NCBI GenBank assembly: GCA_039794845.1
Contig: JAUQVK010000091.1
Location: 1-57,246 of the forward strand
DNA from: Thermostichus sp. DRC_bins_24
GTDB taxonomy: Bacteria > Cyanobacteriota > Cyanobacteriia > Thermostichales > Thermostichaceae
Length of the DNA: 57,246 bases
Reading direction: 5' to 3'
Shown: positions 2,331 through 54,741 of the stretch, one piece after another
Layout of the letters: every line of letters starts with the position of its first letter
Position numbering within the stretch: the stretch's first letter is position 1
Made by a program: the position numbers and the translations under genes
Notes under the pieces: model-generated
Databases searched by the model: none
The model's input: only the letters and a program-made list of their open reading frames with translations
What the model was told of the DNA's origin: nothing

Positions 2331-2335
2331 GGGGT

Positions 2336-2467: not shown

Positions 2468-2542
2468 AGTCGGGATCCTGTCCTAAGCAACAAAACGAAA
2501 CAAAGTAAGTTTACAAATCTTAGCGTCGCGCCGGGCTAATTC

Positions 2543-2788
2543 CTACTGACTTAGCCTTTCCAGCTGATCCAGAGCCTGAAAACGATCGCTTACAATCGGC
2601 AACTCTTGTCGCTCTGCCGTGAAATACTCATTGGGGCGCGGAGTGCCGAAAACATCATAAGCCAAGCCGGTGCTCACGAAGAGCCAACCTGCTAAAAACA
2701 AAGCGGGAATCGTCAGAGCATGAATAACCCAGTAGCGCACACTGGTGATGATATCGGCGAAAGGCCGCTCTCCGGTGTTGCCAGACAT
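2543..2788 (-). CDS. psbE: Cytochrome b559 alpha subunit
   Basis: [19 protein letters not shown]...[24 protein letters not shown] upstream. Confidence 0.98.
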
Positions 2789-11366: not shown

Positions 11367-11436
11367 AATTTAGTGGGGAAAATTAGTGGGGAAAAGGCCA
11401 ACCCCATCTTCGCTCCCCACCGGGATCCCCATACCC

Positions 11437-11712
11437 CTACACCTGTAGCGGTTGCCGGGGATAGGCGGGCAGTTGCCAGCACATCTCCAGCCAGTTTTTC
11501 AGCTCTTGTGGCTGACCCATGAGGCTCATTTCTACCAACAAAATGGCGGCTCGATCCGCGGATCCCTTGGATCCCAGTCGAATTAGGGCCGATAGCCCAT
11601 CTTCACACCAGCGGACAGACACGCCTTGCTGGATCAAAGCCTGGGCTGCAACAGCAATGCAGGACTGGGGTACTTGGACATCCCGCCGCTCGTAATCGAA
11701 AGTGGAAAGCAT
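11437..11712 (-). CDS. Hypothetical protein (~91 aa)
   Basis: ORF fills the gap in the same orientation as the exonuclease; no recognised motif. Confidence 0.55.
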   Translation of the reverse strand: MLSTFDYERRDVQVPQSCIAVAAQALIQQGVSVRWCEDGLSALIRLGSKGSADRAAILLVEMSLMGQPQELKNWLEMCWQLPAYPRQPLQV

Positions 11713-11932
11713 GAACGGCAACCCAAATCTTTATTATGTTTTAATCTTCTTCCCTTTTGGGTCGTTCGCCAAGGGTCTTTACAAAGCATGAAGTGATCTT
11801 TTGTAAATGCTTAAGAATGCGGGTTAGGGCGGGAGGAGCCCTGATGGCACAAGGCTTAAAAGATGATGGCGATTTCTCCGCTCTATCTTCCTGCCGCCGT
11901 CAGAATGGCCTCATCTGCTGGAGGGTTGGGAG

Positions 11933-12715
11933 ATGGGAGTCAGTCGCTGGTTGCCCCAGGCCACCTTTGCCGGAGCAGTGCTGCTTTTGGTGGGGCTTGG
12001 CAGACCGTCGCGATTGGTGGGCAACGGGGAAAGCTTGGTGGTGTTCACCTGGTTCGACGGAGTTAGCCCAACAGCTCTGGCGCCGGGTTTGCATTGGGTG
12101 CCTCCCTTCGTCTCTCGCACGCTGATTTTCGATGTGAAAACCCAGACCCTGACCTGGAAAGACGGGGATCCGACGGCCTATGCCCCTCGCTTGGTGGCGC
12201 TCTCCCAAGATGGACAGCAGATTCGGGTTGAGGTGACGCTGCAATTTCGCATTCTCGATGCCCCAAAGGTGTACACCCATCTGGGAGAAGGCTACCGGGA
12301 TCGCATTGCTCCGATTGTGCGTTCTGTGATCATCAACGAAACTGCTGGGTTCTCTGCCCAGGCCCTCTACTCTACCCAGCGCCCGCTGCTACAGGGTCAA
12401 ATTCGTGAGCAGGTGGCTCTTTTGCTACAAGAGTACGGCATCGAGGTTTTGGATTTGCTGCTGCGGGATGTGGACTTCGATCCCGACTTTGTGGCCGCCA
12501 TTGAAGCGAAGACCATTGCAGAAAATCGTCTTGCCCAAAAGCAATTTGAGATCGAACAGGCTCGTCAAGATGCACGCACCATTGTTTCTCAAGCGGAGGC
12601 GGAAGCGGGGCAGCTGCAGGCCAAGGCACAAGCCCTTACTCAAAATCCCCAATATCTGGAGGTGGTGAAGGCCTCTGTGCTCGGGGCGCGACTGGAGACT
12701 TTGGTAACGAAGTAA
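11933..12715 (+). CDS. SPFH/prohibitin family protein
   Basis: N-terminal TM, PGLHWVPPF, SQDGQQIRVEVTLQF, and coiled-coil AAIEAK...AEAEA. Confidence 0.9.
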   Translation: MGVSRWLPQATFAGAVLLLVGLGRPSRLVGNGESLVVFTWFDGVSPTALAPGLHWVPPFVSRTLIFDVKTQTLTWKDGDPTAYAPRLVALSQDGQQIRVEVTLQFRILDAPKVYTHLGEGYRDRIAPIVRSVIINETAGFSAQALYSTQRPLLQGQIREQVALLLQEYGIEVLDLLLRDVDFDPDFVAAIEAKTIAENRLAQKQFEIEQARQDARTIVSQAEAEAGQLQAKAQALTQNPQYLEVVKASVLGARLETLVTK

Positions 12716-12809: not shown

Positions 12810-13742
12810 ATGCCCAAGACAGAAGCAGCAGAACGGAGTCAGTCGGGTTGGCTGATGGCCGGAGGAATCGCCATCTTGGCGGCTTTGGGGATGCTTCGGT
12901 CTTGCCTTTACGTCACCCCACCCGGGCATGCCACAGTGGTGTTCAATACATTCTCTGGGCTGCAAAAGGGGCGTGTGGAGTTGCCGGGGGTGATTTTTGT
13001 CGTTCCTGGCATTGATACCCCGATCACCTACACCGTGCTCACCCGCGTCTGGGAATTTACCAATAACCCCACTTCTGCCAACGGCATCAGCAACGCGATC
13101 ACCGTCAATACCGCTGACGGGCAGGCCTTTGCCATTGATGTGGCGATCGCCCTCAAGCCCAACCCCGCCACGTTGGATGAGTTGCATGCCAGTATTGGCG
13201 AAAACTATCTTTCGACGGTGGTGGTACCTGTGGTGCGCTCGAAAATTCGCGATATCTCCGCATCTTTTGATTCCGAGGATTTTTACCGCAAGAGCCAGCG
13301 AGCCGCCATCGAACACCAAGCCCTGGCCTTGATTCGGCAGGAAATGCCCACCCTAAAACGGGACGGCCAAACGCTGCCTTTGTTGCAGGTGGATGGCGTC
13401 TTTCTGGGCAATCCCGATTTTCCGGAGGCGTTGAAAGATTCGATCGAGCGGAAACAAGTGGCTTCGATCACGGCGCAAACAGCAGCCGTGCGAGCGCAAA
13501 TTCAGGAAAAAGAAACAGAACGCCTGTTAATCTTGGCAGCGGCGAACCAGCGTGCCATTGAGCTGAAAGGACAAGCGGCAGCCCAAAACGCCCAACTGGC
13601 AGAGCTGCTGTTTTACGAAACGTTGCAAGAGCGCATTCAAAATCCCTCTACGCCCCCCTTGCGGATCATCCGTGTGGAAGGGGATTCCACCGTATTCCTG
13701 AACGTGGATCCCCACCAGGCTGCTCTGCAAAGCGCGCAATAG
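12810..13742 (+). CDS. SPFH/prohibitin family protein
   Basis: N-terminal TM, TADGQAFAIDVAI, VVPVVRSKIRD and SIERKQVA. Confidence 0.88.
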   Translation: MPKTEAAERSQSGWLMAGGIAILAALGMLRSCLYVTPPGHATVVFNTFSGLQKGRVELPGVIFVVPGIDTPITYTVLTRVWEFTNNPTSANGISNAITVNTADGQAFAIDVAIALKPNPATLDELHASIGENYLSTVVVPVVRSKIRDISASFDSEDFYRKSQRAAIEHQALALIRQEMPTLKRDGQTLPLLQVDGVFLGNPDFPEALKDSIERKQVASITAQTAAVRAQIQEKETERLLILAAANQRAIELKGQAAAQNAQLAELLFYETLQERIQNPSTPPLRIIRVEGDSTVFLNVDPHQAALQSAQ

Positions 13743-41667: not shown

Positions 41668-41742
41668 TTTGCTCTATGTCTGTTTGCTCTATGTCTGTTT
41701 GCTCTATGTCTGTTTGCTCTATGTCTGTTTGCTCTATGTCTG
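41668..41742. repeat. Perfect tandem repeat (TTTGCTCTATGTCTG) x5
   Basis: Five exact 15-bp units read directly, followed by a degenerate partial unit. Confidence 0.97.
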
Positions 41743-42442: not shown

Positions 42443-43927
<1,485 letters not shown>

Positions 43928-44273
43928 GTAATCCTACCACCCGAATTGCGGTAAGCTGGGGGGCTTCACAATTTGTTCGTATGGGTGTTCGTATGGGTGA
44001 AGGAAATCGAGCTACAGCCTTTTCGAGCAATATCTACTACACTGGAGGCCGTACAGTGGGCGCCTACTCATCCGTTGCCCAGCGAGGATTTCTCCGTTGC
44101 CTTACACCCTGTGTGAAGTCAGAAAAGACTATCTCTGAGGATAGGAGGATGAAAGCCATGTCGAGATACAGCCCTTGCACGGGTCTTCTACGACAGGGCT
44201 TACGCTTGCTGTTCCTGCTCCGCAGGGTAGAGCACCTAGGCTTTACGCTCACTTGTTGTAGAAGGGGATCCCG

Positions 44274-44711
44274 ATGGCATCTAATGCGGATATTGTTCGC
44301 GAATACCACACGCGTCTCTGGGCCCAGGGAGATCTCAGCGCCGTTGAGGACTACTGGCTACCTACAGCCGAAGTGCATATGACCGGCTTTGATGGTAATG
44401 GCATTGAGGTGGTGAAAGCCGACGTAGAGCGCTATTTCAAGGCATTTAGTGACGTAGAAACCCAGATCAATCACCTCGTCACGGAGGGAGATACGGTGGT
44501 CTTACACTGGACCACCAGCGGCCTCCACGTCGGTACCTACGACGATATTCCCGCCACTCAGAAGCGAATTACCATGACGGGTATCGATCTGCTGCGTCTG
44601 TCAGAGGGGCGCTTTGCCGAGTGCTGGTCGATGTGGGATGGTCTGTCGGTCTACGAGCAACTGGGGGTGTTGAAACTGGAGCGACCGTCCCCTTCTGAAC
44701 CTTCTGAATAG
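44274..44711 (+). CDS. SnoaL-like / ester cyclase (NTF2-fold) protein
   Basis: LWAQGDL, AFSDV, EGDTVVLHWTTSGLH, PATQKRITMTGIDLLRL, GRFAECW. Confidence 0.88.
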   Translation: MASNADIVREYHTRLWAQGDLSAVEDYWLPTAEVHMTGFDGNGIEVVKADVERYFKAFSDVETQINHLVTEGDTVVLHWTTSGLHVGTYDDIPATQKRITMTGIDLLRLSEGRFAECWSMWDGLSVYEQLGVLKLERPSPSEPSE

Positions 44712-44894
44712 TTCATCCATGCTTAAGTTCCCTGGGATCCACAGCATCTGCCGGATCTGGGCAATTGTTATCGGCAGCTCACCGGTGATGAGGTTGAGGT
44801 AAGGAGATCATTTGGTCTTGAACGGGTCTTGATGACGTCTGGATTGCAGGTCTTGCTGATGACTTCACCAATCAAGCTACAGCTCAAGTACGGT

Positions 44895-45638
44895 ATGACG
44901 TTTCTGGAGGTTCCCTCCCGACCAGACGCCCCACTGCGGGAGCAAATTGCCCAAGATGGGGTGGCTGTACTACCGGGGCTCCTTGAGCCCAATGTCTGCG
45001 CTGCATTATGTCGGACCATCGATCAGCTACGGGCCACCCCAGGGCCACATTTTCGGACTCTTTCCCCACCTGGTGAGCCCCTTGCCCAGAGCGATTTGTT
45101 TCGCTGGCCGGAGGATGAAACCCTGGCCAAGGTGGCCACCGAAGGGATCCTGCCCCAACTGGCCGCCAGTGTGTTTGGTACCCAGTCTGTTCTCTTGCTG
45201 GAGGATCAGTTTTTCTACTCGGAGGCAGGATGCCAAACCCTCAGTCCCTGGCATCAGGATCACCCCTATCATCCGCTTGAGCCCTGGTTTTTGACCTTTT
45301 GGATCCCCTTGGATCCCGTTTTGGCAGGGCAGGGATTACGAGCGGTGGTGGGATCCCATCGCGGGCCACTGTATGCGCCGGTTGAATTTTCTGCGACAGC
45401 AGCCACGTTAGCTGCGGGGGGGCAAACTCTGGCTCCTGTCCCCGATATTGATGAGACCAGGATCCTAGCCCCCAGTTTCCAGCCGGGGGATGTCATGATT
45501 CTGGACTCCCGTACGCTCCACGCCGGTGGCCAAGCCTGTCCCCATCCCTTCCGGCGGATTTCCATTCGCTACGCTCATCCCGAAACTCATGTGGTGGAGC
45601 GAGCATGGCCTGTCGCGGCCTTTTGGCAGGAGCAGTAG
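44895..45638 (+). CDS. PhyH-family Fe(II)/2-oxoglutarate dioxygenase
   Basis: QDGVAVLPG, SPWHQD (HxD), TFWIPLD, GSHR, PGDVMILDSRTLHAG, RRISIRY. Confidence 0.9.
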   Translation: MTFLEVPSRPDAPLREQIAQDGVAVLPGLLEPNVCAALCRTIDQLRATPGPHFRTLSPPGEPLAQSDLFRWPEDETLAKVATEGILPQLAASVFGTQSVLLLEDQFFYSEAGCQTLSPWHQDHPYHPLEPWFLTFWIPLDPVLAGQGLRAVVGSHRGPLYAPVEFSATAATLAAGGQTLAPVPDIDETRILAPSFQPGDVMILDSRTLHAGGQACPHPFRRISIRYAHPETHVVERAWPVAAFWQEQ

Positions 45639-45728
45639 TTTCGAGTACAGAAATTATCCCGCCGTTGAGACAGGGTTGAGTCGTGGGCTGTTTGTCTGAT
45701 TCTCACCGTCTCAGGGGCATTTCATTTG

Positions 45729-46748
45729 ATGTTGAGGTCTCGTTCTTTTTCTCGCCGCAGCGTCATCAAGCTCTTGGGGGCTGGTGGTGCCTTTATGGCC
45801 AGCTCCCCTTGGCTGCGGTCTCCCCAGGCTCATGCCGCCACCTCGGTGGGCTTTCAACTTTCCTGGCTCCATTCCGTTCAGTTTGGGGGCAGCTACATCG
45901 CCCAAGACAAAGGCTATTGGGCCGACGAAGGGCTGCAGGTGAGCCTGGTGCCCGGTGGCCCCAATGCCCCGGTGGAGCCGCCGGTGGTGAGTGGCACCGC
46001 CTTGATGGGCATCTCGGCTGCCGACTACACCGCTGCTGCGGTCTCGCAGGGGGCCCCCTTCAAGATCATCGGGGTGGCGATGCAGAAAAACCCCTTCACC
46101 ATTGCCTCGTTGCCCGCCAACCCCGTCAATGAACCCAAGGATCTGGAGGGCAAAAAAATCGGCATGGCCACCGCCAACACCCCCGTCTTGCAGGCCCTGT
46201 GCACCCTCAACGATGTGGATATTGACCAGATCACCATCATCCCCACCCAGTACGATGCGGCCCCGCTGGTGAATGGGGAGGTGGATTGCCTGTTGTGCTG
46301 GCTCACCGACCTGCCTGTGGCCATGACTGTGCAGGGGATTGACAACGTCACCATGCTGATGGCGGATTACGGCTATACCGTTCACAGCCAGGCCTATATC
46401 GTGCTGGAAGAGAGCTTGAAAACCCGCCGTGAGGAGGTGATCGGCCTGTTGCGAGGAGAGATCAGGGGCTGGCAAGACTACAAGGCGGACACCGACGCCG
46501 CTGCCGAGCTGACCCTAGCGATGTTCCCGGATGCCGGGTTGGATCTGGAGACCCAGAAGCTACAGGCCAGGGAGCAATTGAAGCTGATGTTCTCGGAGTT
46601 GACCGACCAAAACGGCTTCGGCTGGTTTACCGATGAAACGGTGGCTGCCAATGTGGAGACCCTCAGCCTGTTGGGGGAAAACGTCACCCCTGACCTCTGG
46701 GATCGCTCAATTTTAGAAGAAATCTATGACGGTCGATCTCGCATCTGA
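45729..46748 (+). CDS. ABC substrate-binding protein, NMT1/THI5 (SsuA/ThiY-like) family, Tat-exported
   Basis: Tat motif SRRSVIK...AHA; QLSWLHSVQFGG, DKGYWADEGLQV, PGGP, PKDLEGKKIG. Confidence 0.88.
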   Translation: MLRSRSFSRRSVIKLLGAGGAFMASSPWLRSPQAHAATSVGFQLSWLHSVQFGGSYIAQDKGYWADEGLQVSLVPGGPNAPVEPPVVSGTALMGISAADYTAAAVSQGAPFKIIGVAMQKNPFTIASLPANPVNEPKDLEGKKIGMATANTPVLQALCTLNDVDIDQITIIPTQYDAAPLVNGEVDCLLCWLTDLPVAMTVQGIDNVTMLMADYGYTVHSQAYIVLEESLKTRREEVIGLLRGEIRGWQDYKADTDAAAELTLAMFPDAGLDLETQKLQAREQLKLMFSELTDQNGFGWFTDETVAANVETLSLLGENVTPDLWDRSILEEIYDGRSRI

Positions 46749-47568
46749 TCTGGCCTCTCGTGCCAACCTCAGGGATCCCAGCGCCATGTCGCCCCCAGAG
46801 GTGCGGGTGGTGCAGGGCAACAAGACTTTCGGCTGGGGATCCACTCAGGTGCCCGCCTTGGCGGATATTAACCTACGGCTCCAGCCGGGATCCCTGACGG
46901 CGTTGGTGGGGCCATCGGGCTGCGGCAAGTCCACCCTGCTGCGGGTGATCGCCGGGCTGGAAACCCTCTCCAGTGGGGAGGTGTTGATCGATGGCCAGCC
47001 CCCGGCGGTGCTGAAACAGCGGGGGGAGATCGCCGTGGCCTTTCAGGATCCCTCGTTGCTCCCCTGGCGGACGGTGGAGTCGAATGTGGCGCTGGCCCAA
47101 ACCCTGGCCCGACAATCGGTCAATCGGCAGGCAATCCGGGATCTGCTGGCGCGGGTGGGCCTCAAGGGGTTTGAACGGGCCAAACCGGCAGAACTGTCGG
47201 GGGGCATGCGGCAACGGGCGGCCATCGCCCGTTGTTTGATCACCCAACCTCGGCTGTTGTTGCTGGATGAGCCCTTCGGGGCGGTGGATGAGTTGACCCG
47301 ACGGCGGCTCAATCTGGAGCTGCCCCGTCTCTGGGAAGAACGGGGAGCGACGGCTCTGTTGGTCACCCACTCCATCGACGAGGCGGTGCTGCTGGCGGAT
47401 GAGATCCTGGTCATGAGCGTGCGACCGGGGCGGATCGTGGCTCGGATCCCGGTAAGGTTGCCCCGACCTCGTCAGGCCCAGATCCTGCGCTCGCCAGAGT
47501 TTCATCACCTGGTCGCCCAGGTCTCAGAGGCGTTGGGGCTGGAACCGGTGTTGGAGGCGCAGCGGTGA
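46726..47568 (+). CDS. ABC ATPase (NitT/TauT type)
   Basis: GPSGCGKST, FQDPSLLPWRTV, LSGGMRQR, LLDEPFG, VTHSIDEAV. Confidence 0.93.
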   Translation: MTVDLASDLASRANLRDPSAMSPPEVRVVQGNKTFGWGSTQVPALADINLRLQPGSLTALVGPSGCGKSTLLRVIAGLETLSSGEVLIDGQPPAVLKQRGEIAVAFQDPSLLPWRTVESNVALAQTLARQSVNRQAIRDLLARVGLKGFERAKPAELSGGMRQRAAIARCLITQPRLLLLDEPFGAVDELTRRRLNLELPRLWEERGATALLVTHSIDEAVLLADEILVMSVRPGRIVARIPVRLPRPRQAQILRSPEFHHLVAQVSEALGLEPVLEAQR

Positions 47569-49160
47569 ACCGGCTGGGGTCTGAACCTAGGGCGAAGTTG
47601 CTGGGGGATCCCTGGGTGAACAGCCTACTCATGGCTGGGGCCTTGCTGCTGGCTTGGGAGCTGCTGGTGCGGCTATTGCTATCGGAACGCTATATTTTGG
47701 CGGCCCCCAGCGCCATCCTGGAGCGGTTGGCCAGTCGCCCGGATTTGTATGCGCGTGCCCTGCTGGTGACCCTGCGGGAGGCGGCCCTGGGCTTTTTGTA
47801 TGGCAACGGGGCGGCCCTTCTGCTGGCGACGCTGGTGGCCCTAGTGCCCGTGAGCGAGCGGTTGGTGCAAAACCTGGCTTTGGTGGTGTTTTGTCTGCCG
47901 TTGGTGGCAACGGGGCCGGTGCTGCGGGTGATGTTTGGCACCTCCGATGGCCCGCAAATTACCCTGGCCGCCCTGGCGGTTTACTACACCACCTTTGTGC
48001 CCTTGGTGGTGGGGCTGCGGGCCATTCCGGCCAGTTGGCGGGATCTGGTGGTCAGCTATGGGCGGGGGCGGCTGGCAATGCTGCGCTACGTGCGGGCGCG
48101 TGCTGCCGTGCCCTATCTGGTGGCCGGGTTGCAGGTGGCGGCTCCGGCGGCGGTACTGGGGGCGATGGTGGGGGAGTTTACGGGGGCTGAGCGGGGCATG
48201 GGGGTGCTGGTTATCCAAGGGATCCGCTCGTTGGATGTGGTGGCTACCTGGACGGTGGCCAGTCTGGCGACGGTGGCCTCCATCGCGGTCTATCTCTTGG
48301 CGGTGGCCTTTGGACGGTGGCTCTCTCCGGGTACCCCCCCGCTGTTGCTGACGGCCCGACCGAGTCGCAAGCCATCTCCCGCTGCGGCGTGGATCTCACT
48401 GGGAATGGCGCTGTTGACGGGGCTGCTGATCCTGGGGGTGTGGCAGATGAGCATGGATGGGCTCCAGCTGAATCGCTTTTTTGCCAAACGACCGGGGGAT
48501 GTGTGGGCGTTTTTGGTCACCCATGCCAATGCGGGATCCCATCGCAGACAGTTGTTTCAGGCTCTGGGATCCACGCTGGGGGTGACGGTGCCGGGCTATT
48601 TCGCGGGACTGGGGGTGGGCTTGCTCACAGCCTGTGGGTTTGAGCTGTTCCCGCTGGTGCGGCAGGGGGCGATGCCGGTGGCGATTGCGCTGCGCTCGGT
48701 GCCCATCATCACCACGGCCCCGCTGGTGATTATCGTCATGGGACGGGGGGGAGCCAGCTTGATCACGCTGGTGGCGGTGATGACCTTTTTCCCGACGTTG
48801 ATCGCCTGTGCCCAGGGCTTGCGGCAGGTGCCGGGGCAGGTGATCGATGTGTTTAATACCTTTGCCGCCCATCGCCTGAAGATCCTGGTATTGGCCCGTC
48901 TTCCGGCAGCTTTGCCGGCTTTCTTTGCCGCGGCTCGCATTGCGGTGCCCACGGCAGTGCTGGCAGCGACGGTAGCAGAATGGCTGGCGACGGGCACCGG
49001 CATCGGCAACCTGATGGCCCTCACCTATTCCACCAGCAACTACGGGCTGCTCTGGAGTGCGGTGGTGGTTTTGACCTTGGTCTCGGTGGCGGGCTATGGC
49101 ATCGTGGCAGGGCTGGAACGCTGGGTGTTGTCGCAGGTGGCGCCGGAGCAGGTGGTGTGA
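47565..49160 (+). CDS. ABC permease with two fused TM modules (NitT/TauT type)
   Basis: Two similar hydrophobic halves ending GAMVGEF..ERGMG and AATVAEWL..GTGIG; overlaps both neighbouring genes. Confidence 0.9.
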   Translation: MNRLGSEPRAKLLGDPWVNSLLMAGALLLAWELLVRLLLSERYILAAPSAILERLASRPDLYARALLVTLREAALGFLYGNGAALLLATLVALVPVSERLVQNLALVVFCLPLVATGPVLRVMFGTSDGPQITLAALAVYYTTFVPLVVGLRAIPASWRDLVVSYGRGRLAMLRYVRARAAVPYLVAGLQVAAPAAVLGAMVGEFTGAERGMGVLVIQGIRSLDVVATWTVASLATVASIAVYLLAVAFGRWLSPGTPPLLLTARPSRKPSPAAAWISLGMALLTGLLILGVWQMSMDGLQLNRFFAKRPGDVWAFLVTHANAGSHRRQLFQALGSTLGVTVPGYFAGLGVGLLTACGFELFPLVRQGAMPVAIALRSVPIITTAPLVIIVMGRGGASLITLVAVMTFFPTLIACAQGLRQVPGQVIDVFNTFAAHRLKILVLARLPAALPAFFAAARIAVPTAVLAATVAEWLATGTGIGNLMALTYSTSNYGLLWSAVVVLTLVSVAGYGIVAGLERWVLSQVAPEQVV

Positions 49161-49738
49161 TGGGTTCTTTACAGATCTCCTCTGATCAAGGTCTTGAGCG
49201 GGTGAAGGCCCTTTACGATGAGTTGGCCGCGGAACGGGACTGGGTGCTGGCTGCCCCGCTGGCCACCCATCAGGTTCTGGTGGCAGAGGTGGCGAGTTTT
49301 TTGGCCTTGGAAGCGCGGATGCTGGATGCCGGTCGGTTTGAATCCTGGCTGGAGCTTTGGGATCCTGAGGGGTGGTATTGGATCCCGTTGCGGCGCGACA
49401 GCCACCCCGGTCAGGATCAGGCCCTATTTTTGGATGATCGGCGGCGATTGCAGGAGCGGATCTGGCGCCTGCGGGATCCTTATGCCTGGGGGATCCAGCC
49501 TTTGCCGGAGAGTGTGCGAGGGATCACCACGGTCGAAGCCTGGAACCAGAGGGATGAAACTGTGCTAGCCAGCAGCACCCTTACCCTCCACATTCATTCA
49601 GGGTCTGGGGCTCGCCTGGTGGCTGCCCGCCAGATTCACCGATTGCGTCCACAGTCCGGTGGCTTTCAGATCCTTCGCAAAACCGTCTTGATGCCAGAAC
49701 TGGCCCAGGGATCCCGACATTTGGGCTGGTTTCTGTAG
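49160..49738 (+). CDS. Aromatic-ring-hydroxylating dioxygenase beta subunit
   Basis: FLALEARMLDAGRFESWLELW...YWIP, DDRRRLQERIWRL; its ATG overlaps the permease stop (TGATG). Confidence 0.88.
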   Translation: MGSLQISSDQGLERVKALYDELAAERDWVLAAPLATHQVLVAEVASFLALEARMLDAGRFESWLELWDPEGWYWIPLRRDSHPGQDQALFLDDRRRLQERIWRLRDPYAWGIQPLPESVRGITTVEAWNQRDETVLASSTLTLHIHSGSGARLVAARQIHRLRPQSGGFQILRKTVLMPELAQGSRHLGWFL

Positions 49739-49805
49739 GCTTGGGCTGGGTTGCTCACACGATTCACAAAAAAACAAACAAACCTGTTATTGGAATCTCG
49801 CCACC

Positions 49806-51110
49806 ATGGTTTTTCACGCCGCCAATCCACCGGATTTTGACTGGCTGATCCAGTCGGATCGGGTGCATCGCCGGCTCTACACGGATCCCACCCTGTTTGA
49901 GCTGGAGATGGAGCGCATCTTTGGAGGAACCTGGAGCTACTTGGGGCACGAGAGCGAGATCCCCCAGCCGGGCTGTTTTGTCCGCCGGACTCTGGGTCGC
50001 CGCCCGATCCTCTTGACTCGGGGACAGGATGGCCAGATCCATGGTCTTTTTAACCGCTGCACCCACCGTGGCACCCTCCTGGTCACCGCAGACAAGGGAT
50101 GCAGCAAGCGCCTGACTTGTCCGTATCACGGCTGGTGTTTTGGCCTGGATGGGCGTCTGCACAGCCTGCCCGTAGCCGAGAGCTATGCCAATCCCCGCAA
50201 GTCATCGTTTCATCTGGGCCAGCTACAAGTGCAGACCTATCGGGGCTTGATCTTTGGCACCTTAGCCGCACAACCACCGGATCTGGAGACTTGGCTGGGG
50301 GCGGCCTTGCCCTGGCTGGATGCGCACCTCGATCGCCATCCCAAGGGCATCATCCGGCTGGTGGACTCCCCGGTTCGGCTGGAGTTTGCCGGCAACTGGA
50401 AGCTGCTTTGGGATAACGCTGCCGATGGGATCCATGCCACCTTCGCCCATCGCTCCTACAATCAACTGGGCCACCAAGCCAAGACCAAGACCGTCCTCGC
50501 CCGCAATCCGGCCAGCACCCCGATGGTGAGCCAAACCCTTGACCACGGCCATTGTGTGGTGGATCAGCGACCGGGGATCCCCGACGGACCCTGGTCCACC
50601 ATGCGACAACTGCCGACGCGCGAGGCGTTGGAGGGATCCCTACGGGCTGAGCACCCGCCTGAGCTGCTGGATCTGGCTACCGGCAACATGGTTAACCTCA
50701 GCCTCTTTCCCAATTTGATCTTGGTCGGGAACCAACTGATGGTGGTGGAGCCTCTGGCGGTGGATCGCACCCGCATCCACCTGTACCTGGCGATGGCAGA
50801 AGCTGTACCGGAGGCGATCAACCTGCTGCGATTACGGGTGGATGAAGATTTTGTTAGCTTTGGCACGCCGGATGATCTGGCAATCTTCGAGCGCATCCAG
50901 GAGGGGCTGGGGATCCCTGAGGAGGAGTGGCTGGATATCAGCCGGGGGGAGCAAGCCGGGGATCGACAGGATGACCGGGGCCGGGTCACGGGCTCAATTG
51001 CCAGCGAAGCTCCCATTCGCGCCTATTGGCAGGAGTGGAAACGCCTGATGCGGGATCCCATTCCGCTGCGGGTGCGGCGAGCTGGAGTATTACACGGCGG
51101 AATGTACTGA
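49806..51110 (+). CDS. Rieske aromatic-ring-hydroxylating oxygenase alpha subunit
   Basis: Rieske motif NRCTHRG...CPYHGW; mononuclear Fe site NWKLLWDNAADGIHATFAH; FPNL; TPDD. Confidence 0.94.
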   Translation: MVFHAANPPDFDWLIQSDRVHRRLYTDPTLFELEMERIFGGTWSYLGHESEIPQPGCFVRRTLGRRPILLTRGQDGQIHGLFNRCTHRGTLLVTADKGCSKRLTCPYHGWCFGLDGRLHSLPVAESYANPRKSSFHLGQLQVQTYRGLIFGTLAAQPPDLETWLGAALPWLDAHLDRHPKGIIRLVDSPVRLEFAGNWKLLWDNAADGIHATFAHRSYNQLGHQAKTKTVLARNPASTPMVSQTLDHGHCVVDQRPGIPDGPWSTMRQLPTREALEGSLRAEHPPELLDLATGNMVNLSLFPNLILVGNQLMVVEPLAVDRTRIHLYLAMAEAVPEAINLLRLRVDEDFVSFGTPDDLAIFERIQEGLGIPEEEWLDISRGEQAGDRQDDRGRVTGSIASEAPIRAYWQEWKRLMRDPIPLRVRRAGVLHGGMY

Positions 51111-51837
51111 TCACTTCGGGCAGCCAAAGTTTTTGTTTTTTTGCCGCGAATGTGTTTTGTGGGCCGGATAGCTACGGGCAAAGCCGAACTCTCCTGTTGC
51201 CCCTCAGCCCCAACTACACCGGCTATGGCGGGATCCTTATCGATGAAGCCGATCTCAAGGCCATGACCCCCACCCTGGAAAAACAGGGATCCCATGCCTT
51301 CAACTAGAGACGCAGAAGTCCTGCGCTCTGCTACCGGCGAGCGTCGGGAGGAATGCGCTAGAATTACCCTGACAAACTTCTCCGTACCGCGTAAGCGGTC
51401 GGAGTCCGGTAGTTTACTCCTCCCAACCGGGTCAGGCCATTGCGGCGCGGGCGATTCGTTCTGGAGAGCTAGTACAGCTGTTGGAGCAGGTGATCCGCCC
51501 CCATTACCGGCAGAAGATGGAACGCCTGCAGGCAGCCTTTGAACGGGAGTTTCTCGAGGATTTGCCTTGGTTTTACACAAGGTAGAAGGGGCCTTATTCG
51601 CCTGGTTGTGGCTGCCAGATCTGCCCATTTCCGACCGAGAACTCTACCGACGGCTGAAACAAAGTGGTGGTGGTGCCAGGATCCCCCTTCTTTCCGGGGA
51701 CGGATCCCGATTGGCCCTATCAGTACCGGTGTGTGCGCATCAGCCTGACGGCAACACCGGAGCAAGTTGAGCAGGGGGTAGCTATTCTCGACCGGGTAGT
51801 GGAACAGGCCTACGCTGAAGCTCCTTTAGCAGTATGA
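51082..51837 (+). pseudogene. avtA: Decayed valine--pyruvate aminotransferase (5'-truncated, internally deleted, frameshifted)
   Basis: Fragments in different frames: RNVLITSGSQSFCFFAANVF...LPLSPNYTGYGG; GQAIAARAIRSGEL...[46 protein letters not shown] ending TGA at 51837. Confidence 0.8.
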
Positions 51838-51858
51838 GTAGCAGTATGAGGCAGCAAG

Positions 51859-51969
51859 ATGGATTATTTGATGATCCCAGATGAACCGATCGTGATCGCC
51901 AGCTTGCTGGGTTTAGCTCTGCTGGGGATCCTGATCTTGAACCTGGCCGGCGGTGGATTCCTCGACTAG
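51859..51969 (+). CDS. Putative 36-aa single-TM small protein
   Basis: Hand translation MDYLMIPDEPIVIASLLGLALLGILILNLAGGGFLD; weak GAGG upstream. Confidence 0.4.
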   Translation: MDYLMIPDEPIVIASLLGLALLGILILNLAGGGFLD

Positions 51970-51990
51970 GACGTGGAAAAACGGTTTAGG

Positions 51991-52020
51991 TTGACAGGCT
52001 TACACACCCTTCTCTAGAAT
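51991..52020 (+). promoter_or_regulatory. Sigma70-type promoter of tRNA-Glu
   Basis: TTGACA-18 nt-TAGAAT, 22 nt upstream of the tRNA. Confidence 0.8.
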
Positions 52021-52042
52021 CAGGATCGCGTCATTTCTAGAT

Positions 52043-52115
52043 GCCCCCATCGTCTAGAGGCCCAGGACACATCCCTTTCACGGATGCGACAGGGGTTCGA
52101 ATCCCCTTGGGGGTA
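52043..52115 (+). tRNA. trnE: tRNA-Glu (TTC)
   Basis: GCCCCCA/TGGGGGT acceptor stem, anticodon arm CATCC-CTTTCAC-GGATG, GGTTCGAATCC T-arm; CCA not encoded. Confidence 0.97.
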
Positions 52116-52244
52116 TAGGTGCAAGCTCTGCTCTGGGCCACGTCTCAAGCCTGTAGACAATGGGTTTTAGACCTATTGGCTAGGGGGGGATTGGAGGAAG
52201 CCACTGACGTAAATCTGACGTAAACCGCACCTTACGTCAGAGTC

Positions 52245-52660
52245 ATGCGAGAGATAAAACCCACCCATAACCATGGATCCCTGACAATACGGTTCACTTA
52301 CCAAGGCAAGCGATACCAGCTTTCTGGCTTTGGTCAGGCATCCGATAAAGCAGCCAGGGCTAAGGCGGATCAAGTTGCTAAGCAGATCTACCTCGATTGC
52401 CTGACTGGATCCTTCGACCCAACCTTGAATCGATACCGACCCGCGAACCAAAAAAGGCAATTTTCTCCAGGGTTCCCCCCCGATCACCTGGAGGCCAGAT
52501 TAAGCCATCGCATCGGAACCCAATACAACCCAGCCGATGTGGCTCTGATGGGCAACCTCATCCAGTACAGGGATCCCATTAACTTCCCTGACTAGGCTCA
52601 AGCCTTTGTTTGTCAAGTGGCTGAGGGATACCCAGAAACTTGCCTCCGGCACCATAAGCT
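52245..52660 (+). pseudogene. Truncated tyrosine integrase (arm-binding/DUF3596-like N-terminus)
   Basis: GSLTIRFTYQGKRYQLS...AKQIYLDCLTGSFDPTLNRY; TAG at 52593-52595, then a frameshifted continuation VKWLRDTQKLASGTIS; no catalytic domain; lies just 3' of a tRNA. Confidence 0.75.
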
Positions 52661-52791
52661 TATCGAGGGCTCCCTTATTCTCGGAGGGGGCGTTCCGGCG
52701 GGGCAAGGAAGATCGGGAATAATAGAAACGGCACAGGCGGATCCCGGGATCCTGAGCCTGGCCTGTTGACTTCCTTCCCTTGAGGCCGATT

Positions 52792-54741
52792 ATGGTTTTG
52801 CACGAGGCGGCTGACACGCCCCGCATCAATGCGCGCGAATTCGATGCCTTCGACATTTTTAACCTGAAGCACTATCTCGGCCCCAACCCCTATTTGAATA
52901 CTGCTGCTTTCACTTTCGACCTCGCCCTTACCCAATTCCTGAAGCCACTACCCGTTGAGGCCTATCTGGCCCAAATTGGCTTACGCCTGCCGCAGTTGCA
53001 GGAGGACTCTTATCTGTCTTACGCCCATCTGTTTGCTCGAGTGGTGGCAGAAGTCAACCAGTTGCAGATGGGCCTGCACTTGCAGCAGTGGAGCCTTCGC
53101 CTTTTTCCCGAATACGTGCGCATTGCAGTACAAACGTTGCATGGCCGTACCACCCGTGCGGTGGTTTACTTCGTCTGGGATTGGCTAGAAGCAATTACCC
53201 AAGGGCAGACGTTTGATTTTGATGGGGAACTGCGTCGCCTGCAGCAGTTGTTTCGGGAATCGGTGTATGGGGGGCCGACGGTGTATGCCCTACTGCGAGC
53301 CGCCTACGAACGTCGGATCCCAACCTACTACCTGTGGGATGAGGGCCTGATGCAGTACGGCTACGGGCGCAACCAAGTGCGGGGAGTGGCGACCACCTTT
53401 CACTGTGACAGCAATCTCGATTCCGCCTTCACTACCCGCAAGGACGATTGCAAAGCTTTTTTGGCGGCTCAGGGCTTTCCCGTGCCGCAGGGGGAAGTGG
53501 TGACCTCCTTGGCCGCAGCTTTGGAACAAGCCCAAGAGATAGGCTATCCGGTGGTGCTCAAGCCGGTGGCTGGCCACAAAGGCCTTGGGGTCACTGCCCA
53601 CATTCAAACCCCAGAAGAGTTGAAGTTTGCTTACGATGAGGCCGTAGATGCTATCCCCTATGAGCAGCCGATTCAGCTCATTTTGGAGAAGCATTTGCAG
53701 GGCACAGATTTTCGTCTGTTGTGTGTGGGAGGGCGCTTTGTGGCTGCAACAGAACGGCGCCCAGCCTCGGTGACTGGAGATGGCCAGAGCACCATTGGGC
53801 AGCTCATTCAGCAGGCTAACCGGGATCCCGCCCGTTGGGATACGCCCACGTCCCCGCTGGGGCCGATTCTGTGGGATGAGGCGATGGAGCACTGCTTGGC
53901 CGAGCAGGGTCTAACAGCGGAGAGTGTAATCGAGTCGGGGCGGACGGTGTACCTGCGCAAGGTGTCGAACCTCTCGGCGGGGGGGGTCAGCCGCGATGTC
54001 ACTGCCACGGTTCATCCCGATAACATTGTTTTGGCCCAAACCATTGCCCAGCAGTTTTCCCTAGTGTGTATGGGTATCGATGTGATCGCCACCAGCCTGG
54101 AGCGCTCCTGGAAAGAGGGATCCCTAGGCATTATCGAGATCAATGCAGCGCCGGGGGTACTGATGCACCAGAAGCCGGCCATCGGTGAGGGGGTGGATGT
54201 GCCGGGAGCAATCCTTGACCATTTGTTTCCCAAGACAGCTCGCATCCCAATTTTTACCTTCAATCGTCTGACCTTGAGTGAGATCCACACCCTGGTGGAG
54301 CACATTCTGTCCCACCGTCCCAAGGGGTATGTGGGATGTGTTTGTCGGGAGGGGGTGCTGTTGAACCACAGCGTTAGGCCTCTACAACCCAGTCTGTTTC
54401 GCCAGGTGAAAACGCTGCTTCGCCATCCCCAACTGGATCTACTCTTGGTGGAGATGGATGAGGAAACCCTGGAGCAGGAGGGCTTGGCTTACGAGGGTAG
54501 CGACTTGGTGGTGTTGCGGGATCCCACGGAGAAAGAACTGCAAACGCTGCAACGGGATCTCAACCCCGGCGGTACCCTGCTCCTGCAGCAGGGCTCCACA
54601 ATCACCTTGACGGTGGCGGGGCAGGTGGAATGCTTTAATCTGCCGGAGTCAGACCCTCAGCCGGGGCTCCTACTGCAATCGATAACCCTACGGGTGGTGC
54701 GCAGGATCATGAGCCAACTGCTGCGGGCTTGGCCGGAGTGA
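52792..54741 (+). CDS. cphA2: Cyanophycin synthetase 2 (CphA2, beta-Asp-Arg polymerase; ATP-grasp)
   Basis: RINAR..FDIFN..YLGPNPYL, SVYGGPT, LMQYGYG, KPVAGHKGLGVT, NLSAGG, IIEINAAPG; about 650 aa and lacks a full Mur-like domain. Confidence 0.85.
   Translation: MVLHEAADTPRINAREFDAFDIFNLKHYLGPNPYLNTAAFTFDLALTQFLKPLPVEAYLAQIGLRLPQLQEDSYLSYAHLFARVVAEVNQLQMGLHLQQWSLRLFPEYVRIAVQTLHGRTTRAVVYFVWDWLEAITQGQTFDFDGELRRLQQLFRESVYGGPTVYALLRAAYERRIPTYYLWDEGLMQYGYGRNQVRGVATTFHCDSNLDSAFTTRKDDCKAFLAAQGFPVPQGEVVTSLAAALEQAQEIGYPVVLKPVAGHKGLGVTAHIQTPEELKFAYDEAVDAIPYEQPIQLILEKHLQGTDFRLLCVGGRFVAATERRPASVTGDGQSTIGQLIQQANRDPARWDTPTSPLGPILWDEAMEHCLAEQGLTAESVIESGRTVYLRKVSNLSAGGVSRDVTATVHPDNIVLAQTIAQQFSLVCMGIDVIATSLERSWKEGSLGIIEINAAPGVLMHQKPAIGEGVDVPGAILDHLFPKTARIPIFTFNRLTLSEIHTLVEHILSHRPKGYVGCVCREGVLLNHSVRPLQPSLFRQVKTLLRHPQLDLLLVEMDEETLEQEGLAYEGSDLVVLRDPTEKELQTLQRDLNPGGTLLLQQGSTITLTVAGQVECFNLPESDPQPGLLLQSITLRVVRRIMSQLLRAWPE

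What the first reader, a model, noticed from the sequence alone, without database searches (positions are those of the whole stretch)
44274..51110. Aromatic/N-heterocycle uptake and oxygenation cluster in a hot-spring cyanobacterium: SnoaL + PhyH + NMT1/THI5 ABC importer + Rieske alpha/beta oxygenase without reductase
Seen: seven co-oriented genes. Binding protein, ATPase, permease and beta subunit overlap each other (e.g. TGATG at 49158-49162). Metal-binding motifs look intact: Rieske CxH...CxxH, mononuclear-Fe D..H....H and the PhyH HxD...H triad. Established: two-subunit (alpha3beta3) ring-hydroxylating Rieske oxygenases are typical of heterotrophic aromatic degraders and need a ferredoxin and reductase; NMT1/THI5 binding proteins often bind pyrimidine/purine-like compounds. 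Inference: this is an import-oxidise-ring-process pathway for an unknown, probably N-containing aromatic compound. With no electron-transfer genes present, it may be driven by photosynthetic ferredoxin, i.e. a light-powered dioxygenase. I do not recognise it as a described pathway.
Basis: partly seen in the sequence, partly recalled or inferred. Interest (0 to 1): 0.85.

Follow-up and report, generated by a model that had tools for sequence, protein, structure and literature searches.

The report
Transferred import-and-oxidise gene cassette, substrate unknown
A hot-spring cyanobacterium carries a seven-gene block, picked up from other bacteria, that imports an unidentified small nitrogen-containing compound and oxidises it with two iron oxygenases, and the same block occurs in soil and marine bacteria but has never been studied.

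Summary
Seven intact, co-oriented genes lie at 44274-51110: a SnoaL-like protein, a PhyH-type Fe/2-oxoglutarate oxygenase, an NMT1/ThiY-like binding protein, an ABC ATPase, a fused double permease, and Rieske beta and alpha subunits. The metal motifs and gene overlaps are as described.

The block is not a cyanobacterial invention. The same genes sit together in Alphaproteobacteria and Actinobacteria at 42-76% protein identity. In the window's family the block occurs in 4 of 23 genomes. It is a GC outlier, and all seven genes are under purifying selection (dN/dS 0.06-0.21).

No ferredoxin or reductase gene lies beside the block in any of the 12 loci with enough flank. The cyanobacterial genome has no dedicated oxygenase reductase, only PetF-type ferredoxins and FNR.

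The alpha subunit's sister clade is the glutamine-synthetase-linked arylamine (aniline-type) dioxygenases. The nearest solved relative of the PhyH protein is MysH, an N-dealkylase. The nearest solved relatives of the binding protein are pyrimidine binders.

My reading is import and oxidative trimming of an N-substituted amino-(hetero)aromatic compound, driven by host ferredoxin. The substrate is unidentified, I found no paper describing the block, and expression is untested. It is moderately interesting: a new variant built from known parts.

The parts
44274..44711 (+). SnoaL-like (NTF2-fold) small enzyme, 145 aa
   Evidence: Pfam SnoaL E 3.8e-27. Orthologues are 47-91% identical in 9 other loci, with invariant H12, R14, W16, D20, H85, Y89, D105, W121 and D122. 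Nearest solved relatives are uncharacterised 'polyketide/ester cyclases' 3f9s and 8ysb, IdmH and TsrD. dN/dS is 0.07-0.08.
44829..45638 (+). PhyH-family Fe(II)/2-oxoglutarate oxygenase, MysH-like. The TTG at 44829 may be too early; an ATG at 44895 is the alternative start.
   Evidence: Pfam PhyH E 5.3e-16. It carries the H142-x-D144 ... H231 triad and R243/R247, which are conserved. A profile of 11 orthologues hits MysH (9c9n, 9pze) at 9e-23; the next hit, SnoK, is at 2e-8.
45726..46748 (+). Periplasmic substrate-binding protein, NMT1/THI5/ThiY branch, with a TAT signal
   Evidence: Pfam NMT1 E 3.3e-40. TAT signal 18.2 bits against a cut-off of 16.7. A profile of 12 orthologues hits 4nmy at 3.8e-19, ThiY/3ix1 at 5.2e-14, and THI5/THI13. 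Identity across three phyla is 50-92%, with 64% mean column identity.
46726..47568 (+). ABC transporter ATPase
   Evidence: Pfam ABC_tran E 2.6e-36. Best NCBIfam models are TauB, NrtCD and SaoA, all below their cut-offs. It overlaps both neighbouring genes.
47565..49160 (+). Fused double permease, 531 aa with two BPD_transp_1 halves
   Evidence: Pfam shows two stretches, E 4.6e-37. NCBIfam SaoP/SsuC/NrtB-like, below cut-offs. It is also fused in all other loci that hold it.
49160..49738 (+). Rieske oxygenase beta (small) subunit, 192 aa
   Evidence: Pfam Ring_hydroxyl_B E 1.2e-19. It is the only PF00866 match in the genome, and the family occurs in only 4 of 23 family genomes, the same four that hold alpha. 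Nearest solved relative is IadE (7yls_A) at 2.5e-9.
49806..51110 (+). Rieske non-haem-iron oxygenase alpha (catalytic) subunit, 434 aa
   Evidence: Pfam Rieske plus Ring_hydroxyl_A. All metal ligands are present and invariant. No NCBIfam equivalog is reached; the best, BenA, scores 195 bits against a cut-off of 781. Nearest solved relative is IadD (7yls_B at 1e-54; 9o71). It forms its own clade with SH-aLRT 100.

Best explanation
This is a horizontally acquired, self-contained 'import and oxidise' cassette. I infer that it works as follows.

1. **Import.** The TAT-exported NMT1/ThiY-like binding protein captures a small polar compound outside the cell. The fused permease and the ATPase bring it in.
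2. **First oxygenation.** The alpha-beta Rieske oxygenase (probably alpha3beta3) hydroxylates or oxidatively dealkylates or deaminates the compound with O2. It has no partner of its own. In the cyanobacterium it must take electrons from a host [2Fe-2S] ferredoxin (PetF type), reduced by photosystem I or by FNR with NADPH.
3. **Second oxygenation.** The MysH-like Fe/2-oxoglutarate oxygenase hydroxylates a carbon next to nitrogen, so that an N-substituent falls off as an aldehyde or glyoxylate.
4. **Finishing step.** The SnoaL-like protein carries out an acid-base step (isomerisation, ring closure or opening, or hydrolysis) on an unstable oxygenated intermediate.

The most likely substrate class is an N-substituted amino-(hetero)aromatic or enamine-type molecule, such as an aminopyrimidine, a pterin- or purine-like base, or an arylamine conjugate. 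The cyanobacterial copy has only three enzymes and no ring-cleavage or central-pathway genes. Its pay-off there is therefore probably nutrient (nitrogen) release or salvage of a usable base, not carbon catabolism.

Shown: the gene content, the conservation, the transfer, the selection, and the absence of a linked reductase. Inferred: the order of steps, the electron donor, the substrate class and the physiological benefit.
For: **Gene content.** Domains and intact metal sites are confirmed.

**Conserved block in named genomes.** In the 11 non-cyanobacterial genome loci with alpha at 58-69% identity:
- beta plus alpha occur in 11 of 11.
- The ABC trio occurs in 10 of 11. The miss, L016, is a 5.9-kb contig.
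- PhyH occurs in 10 of 11, with the same miss.
- SnoaL occurs in 8 of 11. It was not found in L010, L011 or L017.

**Conserved block in metagenomes.** Eight loci have alpha at 52% identity or more. Seven show PhyH just after alpha or after SnoaL; the eighth is a 1.4-kb fragment. The other 72 loci (39-46% identity) have none of the cassette genes.

**Transfer.**
- The cassette occurs in 4 of 23 genomes of the family, all in one genus.
- In a sample of 401 Cyanobacteriota, only G000 itself and two genomes with a 48%-identical glutamine-synthetase-type relative matched.
- In a sample of 401 Alphaproteobacteria, only the centre genome matched.
- In the tree the cyanobacterial copies are monophyletic (SH-aLRT 100) and sister to the alphaproteobacterial ones (92), with Actinobacteria basal.
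- Cassette GC is 61.2% against 56.9% for the genome, the 99.9th percentile of 1425 windows of 6.8 kb.
- The flanks differ between genomes. In G022 a DDE transposase lies beside the cassette.

**Function kept.** dN/dS is 0.06-0.21 for all 7 genes against three other copies, with dS 0.38-0.90 and no stops.

**No linked redox partner.**
- No Fer2, Rieske-ferredoxin, FNR-type or GR-type reductase Pfam match was found in 12 loci, scanning ORFs of at least 100-140 aa.
- Of 721 small ORFs (55-119 aa), 13 had an Fe-S-like Cys pattern. None of the 13 had a Pfam match.

**Redox genes in the host genome.** It has 0 Reductase_C matches. It has 2 NAD_binding_1 matches: FNR and a membrane ferric-reductase-like protein. 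It has 9 Fer2 matches, including a classic PetF. All 5 heterotroph hosts tested have Reductase_C genes elsewhere.

**N-substrate clues.**
- The sister clade of alpha (39-48% identity) sits in glutamine-synthetase-like + amidotransferase + alpha + beta + reductase operons. Examples are pTB30, Sphingobium YBL2, a Rhodococcus plasmid, a Nostoc plasmid and metagenome loci.
- The PhyH profile hits MysH at 9e-23, 14 orders of magnitude ahead of the next hit. MysH removes an N-linked glycine by alpha-hydroxylation (PMC10666671, passages read).
- The binding-protein profile hits the formylaminopyrimidine binder ThiY and THI5.
- Accessory genes in heterotroph loci include TRZ/ATZ- or 8-oxoguanine-deaminase-type amidohydrolases in 2 loci.
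- They also include an IPNS-like 2OG oxygenase in 5 of 12 loci. Its best solved relatives are an ethylene-forming-enzyme homologue and thymine dioxygenase.
Against: - No substrate is identified. Every substrate clue is a remote similarity (39-48% identity for alpha, a profile hit for PhyH that is strong only over its N-terminal 145 positions, E about 1e-14 for the binding protein).
- Other accessory genes in heterotroph loci point to a sugar or cyclitol moiety, not a heterocycle. These are GH38 in 3 actinobacterial loci, an acid-sugar-dehydratase-like enolase-superfamily protein in 4 loci, and a MocA-type dehydrogenase, an aldo-keto reductase and an SDR in one locus each.
- The ATPase and permease score best with taurine, sulfonate and nitrate transporter models.
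- Nothing shows that PetF can reduce this oxygenase.
- No expression data exist.
- No regulator gene is in the cyanobacterial copy, and no promoter-like site was found upstream.
Confidence: 0.5

Rival explanations
1. The cassette breaks down or strips nitrogen from mycosporine-like amino acids (MAAs) or related aminocyclohexenimine sunscreens. The MysH-like enzyme removes the amino-acid arm. The Rieske enzyme O-demethylates or hydroxylates the ring. SnoaL and the accessory enzymes in heterotrophs (deaminase, sugar-type dehydrogenases and dehydratases, GH38 for glycosylated MAAs) finish the job.
For: - MysH is by far the nearest solved relative of the PhyH protein (9e-23 against 2e-8 for the next). 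Its reaction is N-dealkylation of MAAs (PMC10666671 passages).
- Accessory genes with a sugar or cyclitol flavour, and deaminase-type amidohydrolases, occur in several heterotroph loci.
- MAAs occur in mats, crusts and the sea, which fits the scattered hosts (recalled, not from a call).
Against: - The match to MysH is strong only over the N-terminal 145 profile positions. No MAA-specific residue could be checked, because the MysH structure paper was not found in the library.
- The binding protein resembles pyrimidine binders.
- The relatives of alpha are arylamine enzymes.
- None of the accessory genes is in the cyanobacterial copy.
- The search for mycosporine plus Rieske gave 3 papers, none on catabolism.
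Confidence: 0.1
2. The cassette scavenges sulfur. It imports an (aryl)sulfonate through an SsuA/TauA-like transporter, and the Rieske dioxygenase releases sulfite.
For: - The best NCBIfam models are TauB for the ATPase (8.7e-59) and SaoP/SsuC for the permease. The binding protein weakly hits SsuA_fam (5e-5) and TauA.
- Alpha-beta Rieske enzymes that desulfonate arylsulfonates, and methanesulfonate monooxygenase with its own SsuA-like importer, are known (recalled).
Against: - All of those model scores are far below their cut-offs.
- The binding-protein profile prefers ThiY/THI5 and does not list SsuA or TauA structures at E up to 1e-3.
- The Rieske spacing is the ordinary 17 residues, not the long spacer recalled for MsmA.
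- The sister clade of alpha is amine-linked.
- The partner 2OG oxygenase is PhyH/MysH-like, not TauD-like.
Confidence: 0.1
3. The cassette salvages a thiamine breakdown product. It imports a pyrimidine fragment and oxidises it to a usable HMP precursor, co-located with thiC.
For: - The cassette is divergent from thiC, whose TPP riboswitch lies at 43828-43929 on the minus strand.
- The same thiC side is kept in G015.
- The binding protein's nearest named solved relative is the formylaminopyrimidine binder ThiY.
Against: - The riboswitch is on the thiC strand, not the cassette strand.
- No riboswitch of any kind was found in the 12 other loci, including the Thermostichus locus L009 with 1.45 kb upstream.
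- In G022 the cassette is beside HisS-like genes and a transposase, and thiC is on another contig.
- The heterotroph loci use LysR or HTH-cupin regulators.
Confidence: 0.07
4. The cassette demethylates a quaternary amine or betaine, with the Rieske and 2OG oxygenases removing N-methyl groups in turn.
For: - Alpha hits the glycine-betaine monooxygenase model GbcA at 1.3e-34. It also hits carnitine, stachydrine-type and demethylase structures at 1e-23 to 1e-27.
- Enolase-superfamily partners occur in known betaine pathways (recalled).
Against: - Those hits are much weaker than the hits to alpha-beta ring-hydroxylating enzymes.
- The betaine enzymes lack a beta subunit (recalled).
- The enolase-superfamily partner scores best with acid-sugar dehydratase models.
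- The binding protein is not of the betaine-binding type.
Confidence: 0.08
5. The cassette is a neutral or decaying relic of gene transfer with no role in the cyanobacterium.
For: - The distribution is patchy (4 of 23 genomes).
- There is no regulator and no recognisable promoter.
- No RNA evidence exists.
Against: - All seven genes are intact in four diverged genomes.
- dN/dS is 0.06-0.21 at dS 0.38-0.90.
- The catalytic residues are invariant.
Confidence: 0.03

Closest known systems
Arylamine (aniline-type) dioxygenase operons: glutamine-synthetase-like + amidotransferase + alpha + beta + reductase. The names Tdn, Atd and Dca are recalled, not from a call.
   Same: - They form the sister clade of the alpha subunit, at 39-48% identity.
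- Both are two-subunit Rieske enzymes.
- Both are linked to nitrogen-compound breakdown.
   Different: - The cassette has no glutamine-synthetase-like, amidotransferase or reductase gene.
- Its gene order is beta-alpha instead of alpha-beta.
- It has its own ABC importer, a PhyH oxygenase and a SnoaL protein, which were not seen in the 72 sister-clade metagenome loci.
IadCDE indole-3-acetic-acid oxygenase of Variovorax (PDB 7yls, 8h2t, 9o71)
   Same: It is the nearest solved structure for both alpha (1e-54) and beta (2.5e-9). It is a two-subunit Rieske architecture. In the abstract of bioRxiv 10.1101/2025.10.25.684584 (listing, abstract and outline seen), the authors say their data are consistent with IadCDE functioning as a monooxygenase.
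   Different: - IadC is a dedicated partner encoded in the operon; here there is none.
- The similarity is only at family level.
- The neighbouring genes are different.
MysH, the Fe/2-oxoglutarate oxygenase that converts disubstituted mycosporine-like amino acids to palythines (PDB 9c9n, 9pze)
   Same: - It is the nearest solved relative of the PhyH protein (profile E 9e-23).
- The two share a W-H-x-D-x-P-Y-x-P iron-site motif.
- MysH performs N-dealkylation by alpha-hydroxylation (PMC10666671 passages).
   Different: - MysH sits in a biosynthetic cluster (mysA-D). Here the protein sits in an import cassette.
- The C-terminal half matches only weakly.
ThiXYZ / ThiY formylaminopyrimidine importer and THI5
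   Same: The binding protein belongs to the same NMT1 branch, and the transporter is a binding-protein-dependent ABC importer.
   Different: - Similarity is only remote (E 5e-14 with a profile).
- There is no TPP riboswitch on the cassette.
- The permease is fused.
Ferredoxin-fed Rieske oxygenases of phototrophs (PAO, CAO, Tic55 type; recalled)
   Same: They have no dedicated reductase, and electrons are presumed to come from photosynthetic ferredoxin. This genome holds six such reductase-less Rieske oxygenases.
   Different: - Those are single-subunit enzymes. Of the six in this genome, five are VanA_C type and one is an alpha-only Ring_hydroxyl_A type.
- The cassette enzyme is the only alpha-beta type in the genome and in the family, and it is foreign.

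Membership tests
Two-subunit (alpha-beta) Rieske non-haem-iron oxygenase | Rieske CxH...CxxH cluster site in alpha | tested here: met
   C85, H87, C105 and H108 with a 17-residue spacer. All four are invariant in 30 orthologues. Pfam Rieske E 3.7e-18.
Two-subunit (alpha-beta) Rieske non-haem-iron oxygenase | 2-His-1-carboxylate mononuclear iron site and bridging Asp | tested here: met
   D207, H210 and H215, plus invariant D356 and D357. The assignment of the carboxylate ligand is by alignment with IadD and by recall of the family motif.
Two-subunit (alpha-beta) Rieske non-haem-iron oxygenase | Beta subunit encoded alongside | tested here: met
   Ring_hydroxyl_B at 49160-49738, E 1.2e-19.
Two-subunit (alpha-beta) Rieske non-haem-iron oxygenase | Cognate ferredoxin and/or reductase | tested here: not met
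   None is in the window or in the 12 homologous loci. The genome has 0 Reductase_C matches. A host ferredoxin must serve; this is inferred.
Arylamine (aniline-type) dioxygenase system | Glutamine-synthetase-like and amidotransferase genes in the operon | tested here: not met
   Both are present in the sister-clade loci. Both are absent from the window cassette and from the orthologous loci.
Arylamine (aniline-type) dioxygenase system | Alpha subunit inside that clade | tested here: not met
   The cassette alphas form a separate clade (SH-aLRT 100) beside the clade of 18 rows with support 98. The tree is a quick tree with some long branches.
PhyH-type Fe(II)/2-oxoglutarate oxygenase | HxD...H iron triad and 2OG-binding Arg | tested here: met
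   H142, D144, H231, R243 and R247 are conserved in 11 orthologues. Pfam PhyH 60 bits against a cut-off of 22.
MysH (palythine-forming MAA oxygenase) | Full-length similarity and a place in a mysA-D biosynthetic cluster | tested here: not met
   The match is strong only for profile positions 3-145. The second stretch scores 9 bits. The neighbours are transport and Rieske genes. The protein is MysH-like, not MysH.
Binding-protein-dependent ABC importer (NMT1/SsuA/ThiY class) | Exported binding protein + permease + ATPase | tested here: met
   NMT1 with a TAT signal, BPD_transp_1 twice, and ABC_tran.
ThiXYZ thiamine-pyrimidine salvage importer | TPP-riboswitch control or thiamine-gene context | tested here: not met
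   The riboswitch is on the opposite strand and belongs to thiC. No riboswitch is in the 12 other loci.
SnoaL-like (NTF2 fold) enzymes | Domain match over the whole length | tested here: met
   Residues 8-130 cover positions 3-126 of the 126-position model, at 95 bits against a cut-off of 28.4. The catalytic chemistry cannot be assigned.

The most novel reading that the evidence does not exclude
The cassette is the first catabolic or nitrogen-salvage pathway for mycosporine-like amino acids, or for a similar N-substituted sunscreen or base made in microbial mats. In the cyanobacterium its foreign alpha3beta3 Rieske oxygenase has been rewired to run directly on photosynthetic ferredoxin, so that a phototroph uses light to strip nitrogen from a neighbour's secondary metabolite.
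Probability: 0.1. Interest if true: 0.8.

Novelty: new variant of a known kind. Interest (0 to 1): 0.5.

Why it matters
- **An unstudied conserved pathway.** Three oxygen-dependent enzymes and a dedicated importer are kept together across three phyla and under selection. That marks a real metabolic pathway that I did not find described. Its substrate is probably a widespread but overlooked natural nitrogen compound.
- **A foreign oxygenase in a phototroph.** For hot-spring mat ecology it would show a photoautotroph taking up and oxidising an organic compound. For enzymology it offers a two-subunit Rieske oxygenase that works without its own reductase in hosts with very different electron carriers. 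That makes it a natural test of how such enzymes adapt to a new ferredoxin.
- **A new sister group.** It gives the arylamine dioxygenases a sister group that lacks the gamma-glutamylation step.

Tried and rejected
- **Expression.** The look-up of sequencing runs listed no RNA holder; the one hot-spring metatranscriptome offered held next to none of the words. Laying that run gave only short matches to conserved ABC motifs and the tRNA. Nothing can be said about expression.
- **Literature.** No description of the gene set was found. The searches were: Rieske + SnoaL + phytanoyl-CoA dioxygenase + ABC transporter, 0 papers. Mycosporine + Rieske, 3 papers, none relevant. NMT1 / Rieske / ring-hydroxylating / Synechococcus / hot spring, 0 papers. 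Homarine + Rieske, 3 papers on glycine betaine. SnoaL / PhyH / Rieske / NMT1, 1 unrelated paper. MysH + crystal structure returned unrelated papers, so MysH substrate residues could not be compared.
- **ESM Atlas on the PhyH protein.** It returned only generic 'phytanoyl-CoA dioxygenase' clusters.
- **Promoter and terminator scan.** The counts were no higher than in shuffled sequence.
- **Riboswitch search.** Nothing was found in the 12 homologous loci.
- **Methanesulfonate monooxygenase idea.** Dropped because the Rieske spacer is ordinary (the MsmA spacer length is recalled).
- **Nostoc UHCC 0926 hit.** The best plasmid hit is in an MAA-producing strain named in PMC10510106 (listing and start of abstract seen). 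This looked like support for the MAA idea. However, its locus is a glutamine-synthetase-linked beta-alpha pair beside an integrase and a transposase, with no MAA genes among the Pfam matches of the 26 ORFs scanned in the 31-kb locus.
- **Earlier notes of the scan.** They gave two look-alikes on other genomes, neither of them this cassette.
- **Not used.** No structure prediction, fold search or complex prediction was run, because they would not have identified the ligand.

Full report
**1. What is there**

The region 44274-51110 holds seven + strand ORFs.
- SnoaL
- PhyH
- an NMT1 binding protein
- an ABC ATPase
- a 531-aa permease with two BPD_transp_1 halves
- Ring_hydroxyl_B
- Rieske plus Ring_hydroxyl_A

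No NCBIfam equivalog cut-off is reached by any of them. Only the TAT-signal model on the binding protein passes. The pathway is therefore not one that NCBI names.

The overlaps are real. TGATG sits at 49158-49162, and GTGA at 47565-47568. The ATPase ATG lies 23 nt inside the binding-protein gene.

The metal sites are intact:
- Rieske: C85/H87/C105/H108, with an ordinary 17-residue spacer.
- Mononuclear iron: D207/H210/H215.
- PhyH: H142-x-D144.

These residues are invariant or nearly so in orthologue alignments.

Upstream, on the other strand, lies thiC with its TPP riboswitch at 43828-43929. Downstream lies tRNA-Glu at 52042-52116.

**2. The organism and the spread of the cassette**

The nearest named proteins come from Thermostichus MAGs and a hot-spring 'Synechococcus' (98%, 92% and 80% identity). 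The next-nearest alpha subunits, at 55-69% identity, are from Alphaproteobacteria and Actinobacteria:
- Alphaproteobacteria: Geminicoccaceae, Bauldia, Pacificibacter, Celeribacter.
- Actinobacteria: Microbacterium, Nocardioides, Pseudonocardia, Acidimicrobiia, Ilumatobacteraceae.

In the 11 non-cyanobacterial genome loci the counts are:
- beta plus alpha in 11 of 11;
- the importer trio in 10 of 11;
- PhyH in 10 of 11 (the miss in both cases is a 5.9-kb contig);
- SnoaL in 8 of 11.

Protein identities to the window are 50-76% for the binding protein, 54-70% for the ATPase, 45-71% for the permease and 42-59% for PhyH.

A metagenome scan added eight more orthologous loci. Seven show PhyH right after alpha or after SnoaL. 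The eighth is a fragment.

The gene order in the cyanobacterium is SnoaL-PhyH-importer-beta-alpha. This is a circular permutation of the alphaproteobacterial order, importer-beta-alpha-SnoaL-PhyH.

**3. Transfer and maintenance**

- *Rarity.* The alpha and beta genes occur in the same 4 of 23 genomes of the family, all in one genus. In a sample of 401 Cyanobacteriota, only the window's genome and two genomes with a 48% relative matched. In a sample of 401 Alphaproteobacteria, only the centre genome matched.
- *Tree.* On a quick maximum-likelihood tree of 50 alpha sequences, the cassette clade has SH-aLRT 100. The five cyanobacterial rows are monophyletic (100) and sister to the eight alphaproteobacterial rows (92). 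Actinobacterial rows are basal. The tree has some long branches, and it is rooted on two distant rows.
- *Composition.* The cassette has 61.2% GC against 56.9% for the genome, higher than 99.9% of 1425 windows of 6.8 kb.
- *Flanks.* They vary between genomes. G015 keeps the thiC side but has a different far side. In G022 the cassette lies between two HisS-like ORFs next to a DDE transposase.
- *Selection.* All seven genes are intact in the three other copies examined. dN/dS is 0.06-0.21 at dS 0.38-0.90.

Together these results indicate an old single acquisition that has been kept by selection and reshuffled or lost within the genus.

**4. Electron supply**

No ferredoxin or reductase domain was found in the 12 homologous loci with flanks. 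Among 721 small ORFs in those loci, 13 had an Fe-S-like pattern, and none of the 13 had a Pfam match.

The five heterotroph genomes tested all have GR-type ferredoxin reductases elsewhere. In the one complete chromosome the nearest is more than 400 kb away.

The cyanobacterial genome is 99.9% complete and has none of these. Its only NAD_binding_1 proteins are FNR and a membrane ferric-reductase-like protein. It has nine Fer2 proteins, including a classic PetF. It also holds six other Rieske oxygenases, five of VanA_C type and one alpha-only, which likewise lack a dedicated reductase.

Feeding from host ferredoxin is thus the only visible option, but it is inferred. It is also the normal state of Rieske oxygenases in this organism, not a special trait of this cassette.

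**5. What the enzymes resemble**

- *Alpha and beta.* Their nearest solved structures are IadD/E, the indole-acetate oxygenase (identified through bioRxiv 10.1101/2025.10.25.684584, listing, abstract and outline seen).
- *Sister clade of alpha.* The next clade, at 39-48% identity, lies in operons with a glutamine-synthetase-like gene, an amidotransferase and a reductase. Examples are C. testosteroni pTB30, Sphingobium YBL2, a Rhodococcus plasmid, a Nostoc plasmid and many soil contigs. This is the aniline-dioxygenase arrangement (name recalled). The single row nearest the cassette clade, L100, sits with an amidohydrolase, a formamidase and DUF1989.
- *PhyH.* As a profile of 11 orthologues it hits MysH at 9e-23. 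The next hit is at 2e-8. MysH removes an N-linked glycine from mycosporine-like amino acids by alpha-hydroxylation (PMC10666671, passages).
- *Binding protein.* Its profile hits an uncharacterised binder (4nmy), the formylaminopyrimidine binder ThiY, and THI5.
- *SnoaL protein.* It matches only uncharacterised or polyketide-type relatives.

**6. Extra genes in the heterotroph loci**

| Accessory gene | Loci |
|---|---|
| IPNS-like 2OG oxygenase; best solved relatives are an ethylene-forming-enzyme homologue and thymine dioxygenase | 5 of 12 |
| Enolase-superfamily protein resembling acid-sugar dehydratases | 4 of 12 |
| TRZ/ATZ- or 8-oxoguanine-deaminase-type amidohydrolase | 2 |
| GH38 | 3 actinobacterial loci |
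| MocA-type dehydrogenase, FAD oxidase, luciferase-like monooxygenase, VanA-type Rieske, aldo-keto reductase, SDR | 1 each |
| LysR or HTH-cupin regulators | several |

None of these is in the cyanobacterial copy. They give mixed signals: some point to an amino-heterocycle, others to a sugar or cyclitol moiety.

**7. Reading**

I commit to an import-and-oxidative-trimming pathway for an N-substituted amino-(hetero)aromatic or enamine-type compound, run on host ferredoxin in the cyanobacterium. Its probable benefit there is nitrogen release or base salvage (confidence 0.5).

The generic parts are well supported: the cassette is real, functional, transferred, and lacks a linked reductase. The substrate class rests on remote similarities.

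The rivals are MAA catabolism (0.1), sulfonate desulfonation (0.1), betaine demethylation (0.08), thiamine-pyrimidine salvage (0.07) and a relic (0.03).

**8. Novelty**

All the parts belong to known families. The combination, its conservation across three phyla and its presence in a thermophilic phototroph were not found in print by the five searches listed. The library misses many subscription papers, so this is not proof of absence.

I rate it a new variant of a known kind, with interest 0.5. The scan had not noted this cassette before on other DNA.

Noticed in passing
window 43828-43929 (-): A TPP riboswitch (62.3 bits against a gathering score of 54.3) lies in front of thiC (42443-43822, minus strand), divergent from the cassette.
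   Followed up: partly
window 51380-51417: A stretch of about 38 bases just downstream of the cassette matches at 89-93% identity at about ten places in G012 and more than thirty in G013, two related complete genomes (query positions 13381-13418). It is a short dispersed repeat of unknown nature.
   Followed up: no
window 41668-41742: A perfect tandem repeat of a 15-base unit, 5 copies (TRF score 150), lies between the epimerase-like gene and the next ORFs.
   Followed up: no
window 52042-52116 (+) and 52245-52595 (+): tRNA-Glu(ttc) is followed by a 116-aa ORF with no Pfam match. The DNA from about 51081 to 52117 lies elsewhere in G015, so the right edge of the cassette is a rearrangement point.
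   Followed up: partly
window 52780-54741 (+): A 653-aa protein has only a weak RimK/ATP-grasp match in its middle (E 1.8e-9). Its function is unknown.
   Followed up: no
L180 (G022:C97) 1725-3094 and 10766-11989: In this relative the cassette is bracketed by a full HisS-like ORF and a partial one, with a DDE_3 transposase next to the alpha gene. The arrangement looks like an insertion or duplication scar.
   Followed up: no
L173 (Nostoc sp. UHCC 0926 plasmid pn1) 12798-17802: A beta-alpha Rieske pair with a glutamine-synthetase-like gene sits right after a phage-type integrase and a DDE transposase on a 1-Mb cyanobacterial plasmid. This is the arylamine-type sister system in a cyanobacterium.
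   Followed up: partly
genome contigs C77, C25, C86, C37, C44, C97: There are six further Rieske oxygenase genes in a 3.5-Mb genome that has no dedicated oxygenase reductase: one alpha-only Ring_hydroxyl_A type and five VanA_C type.
   Followed up: partly
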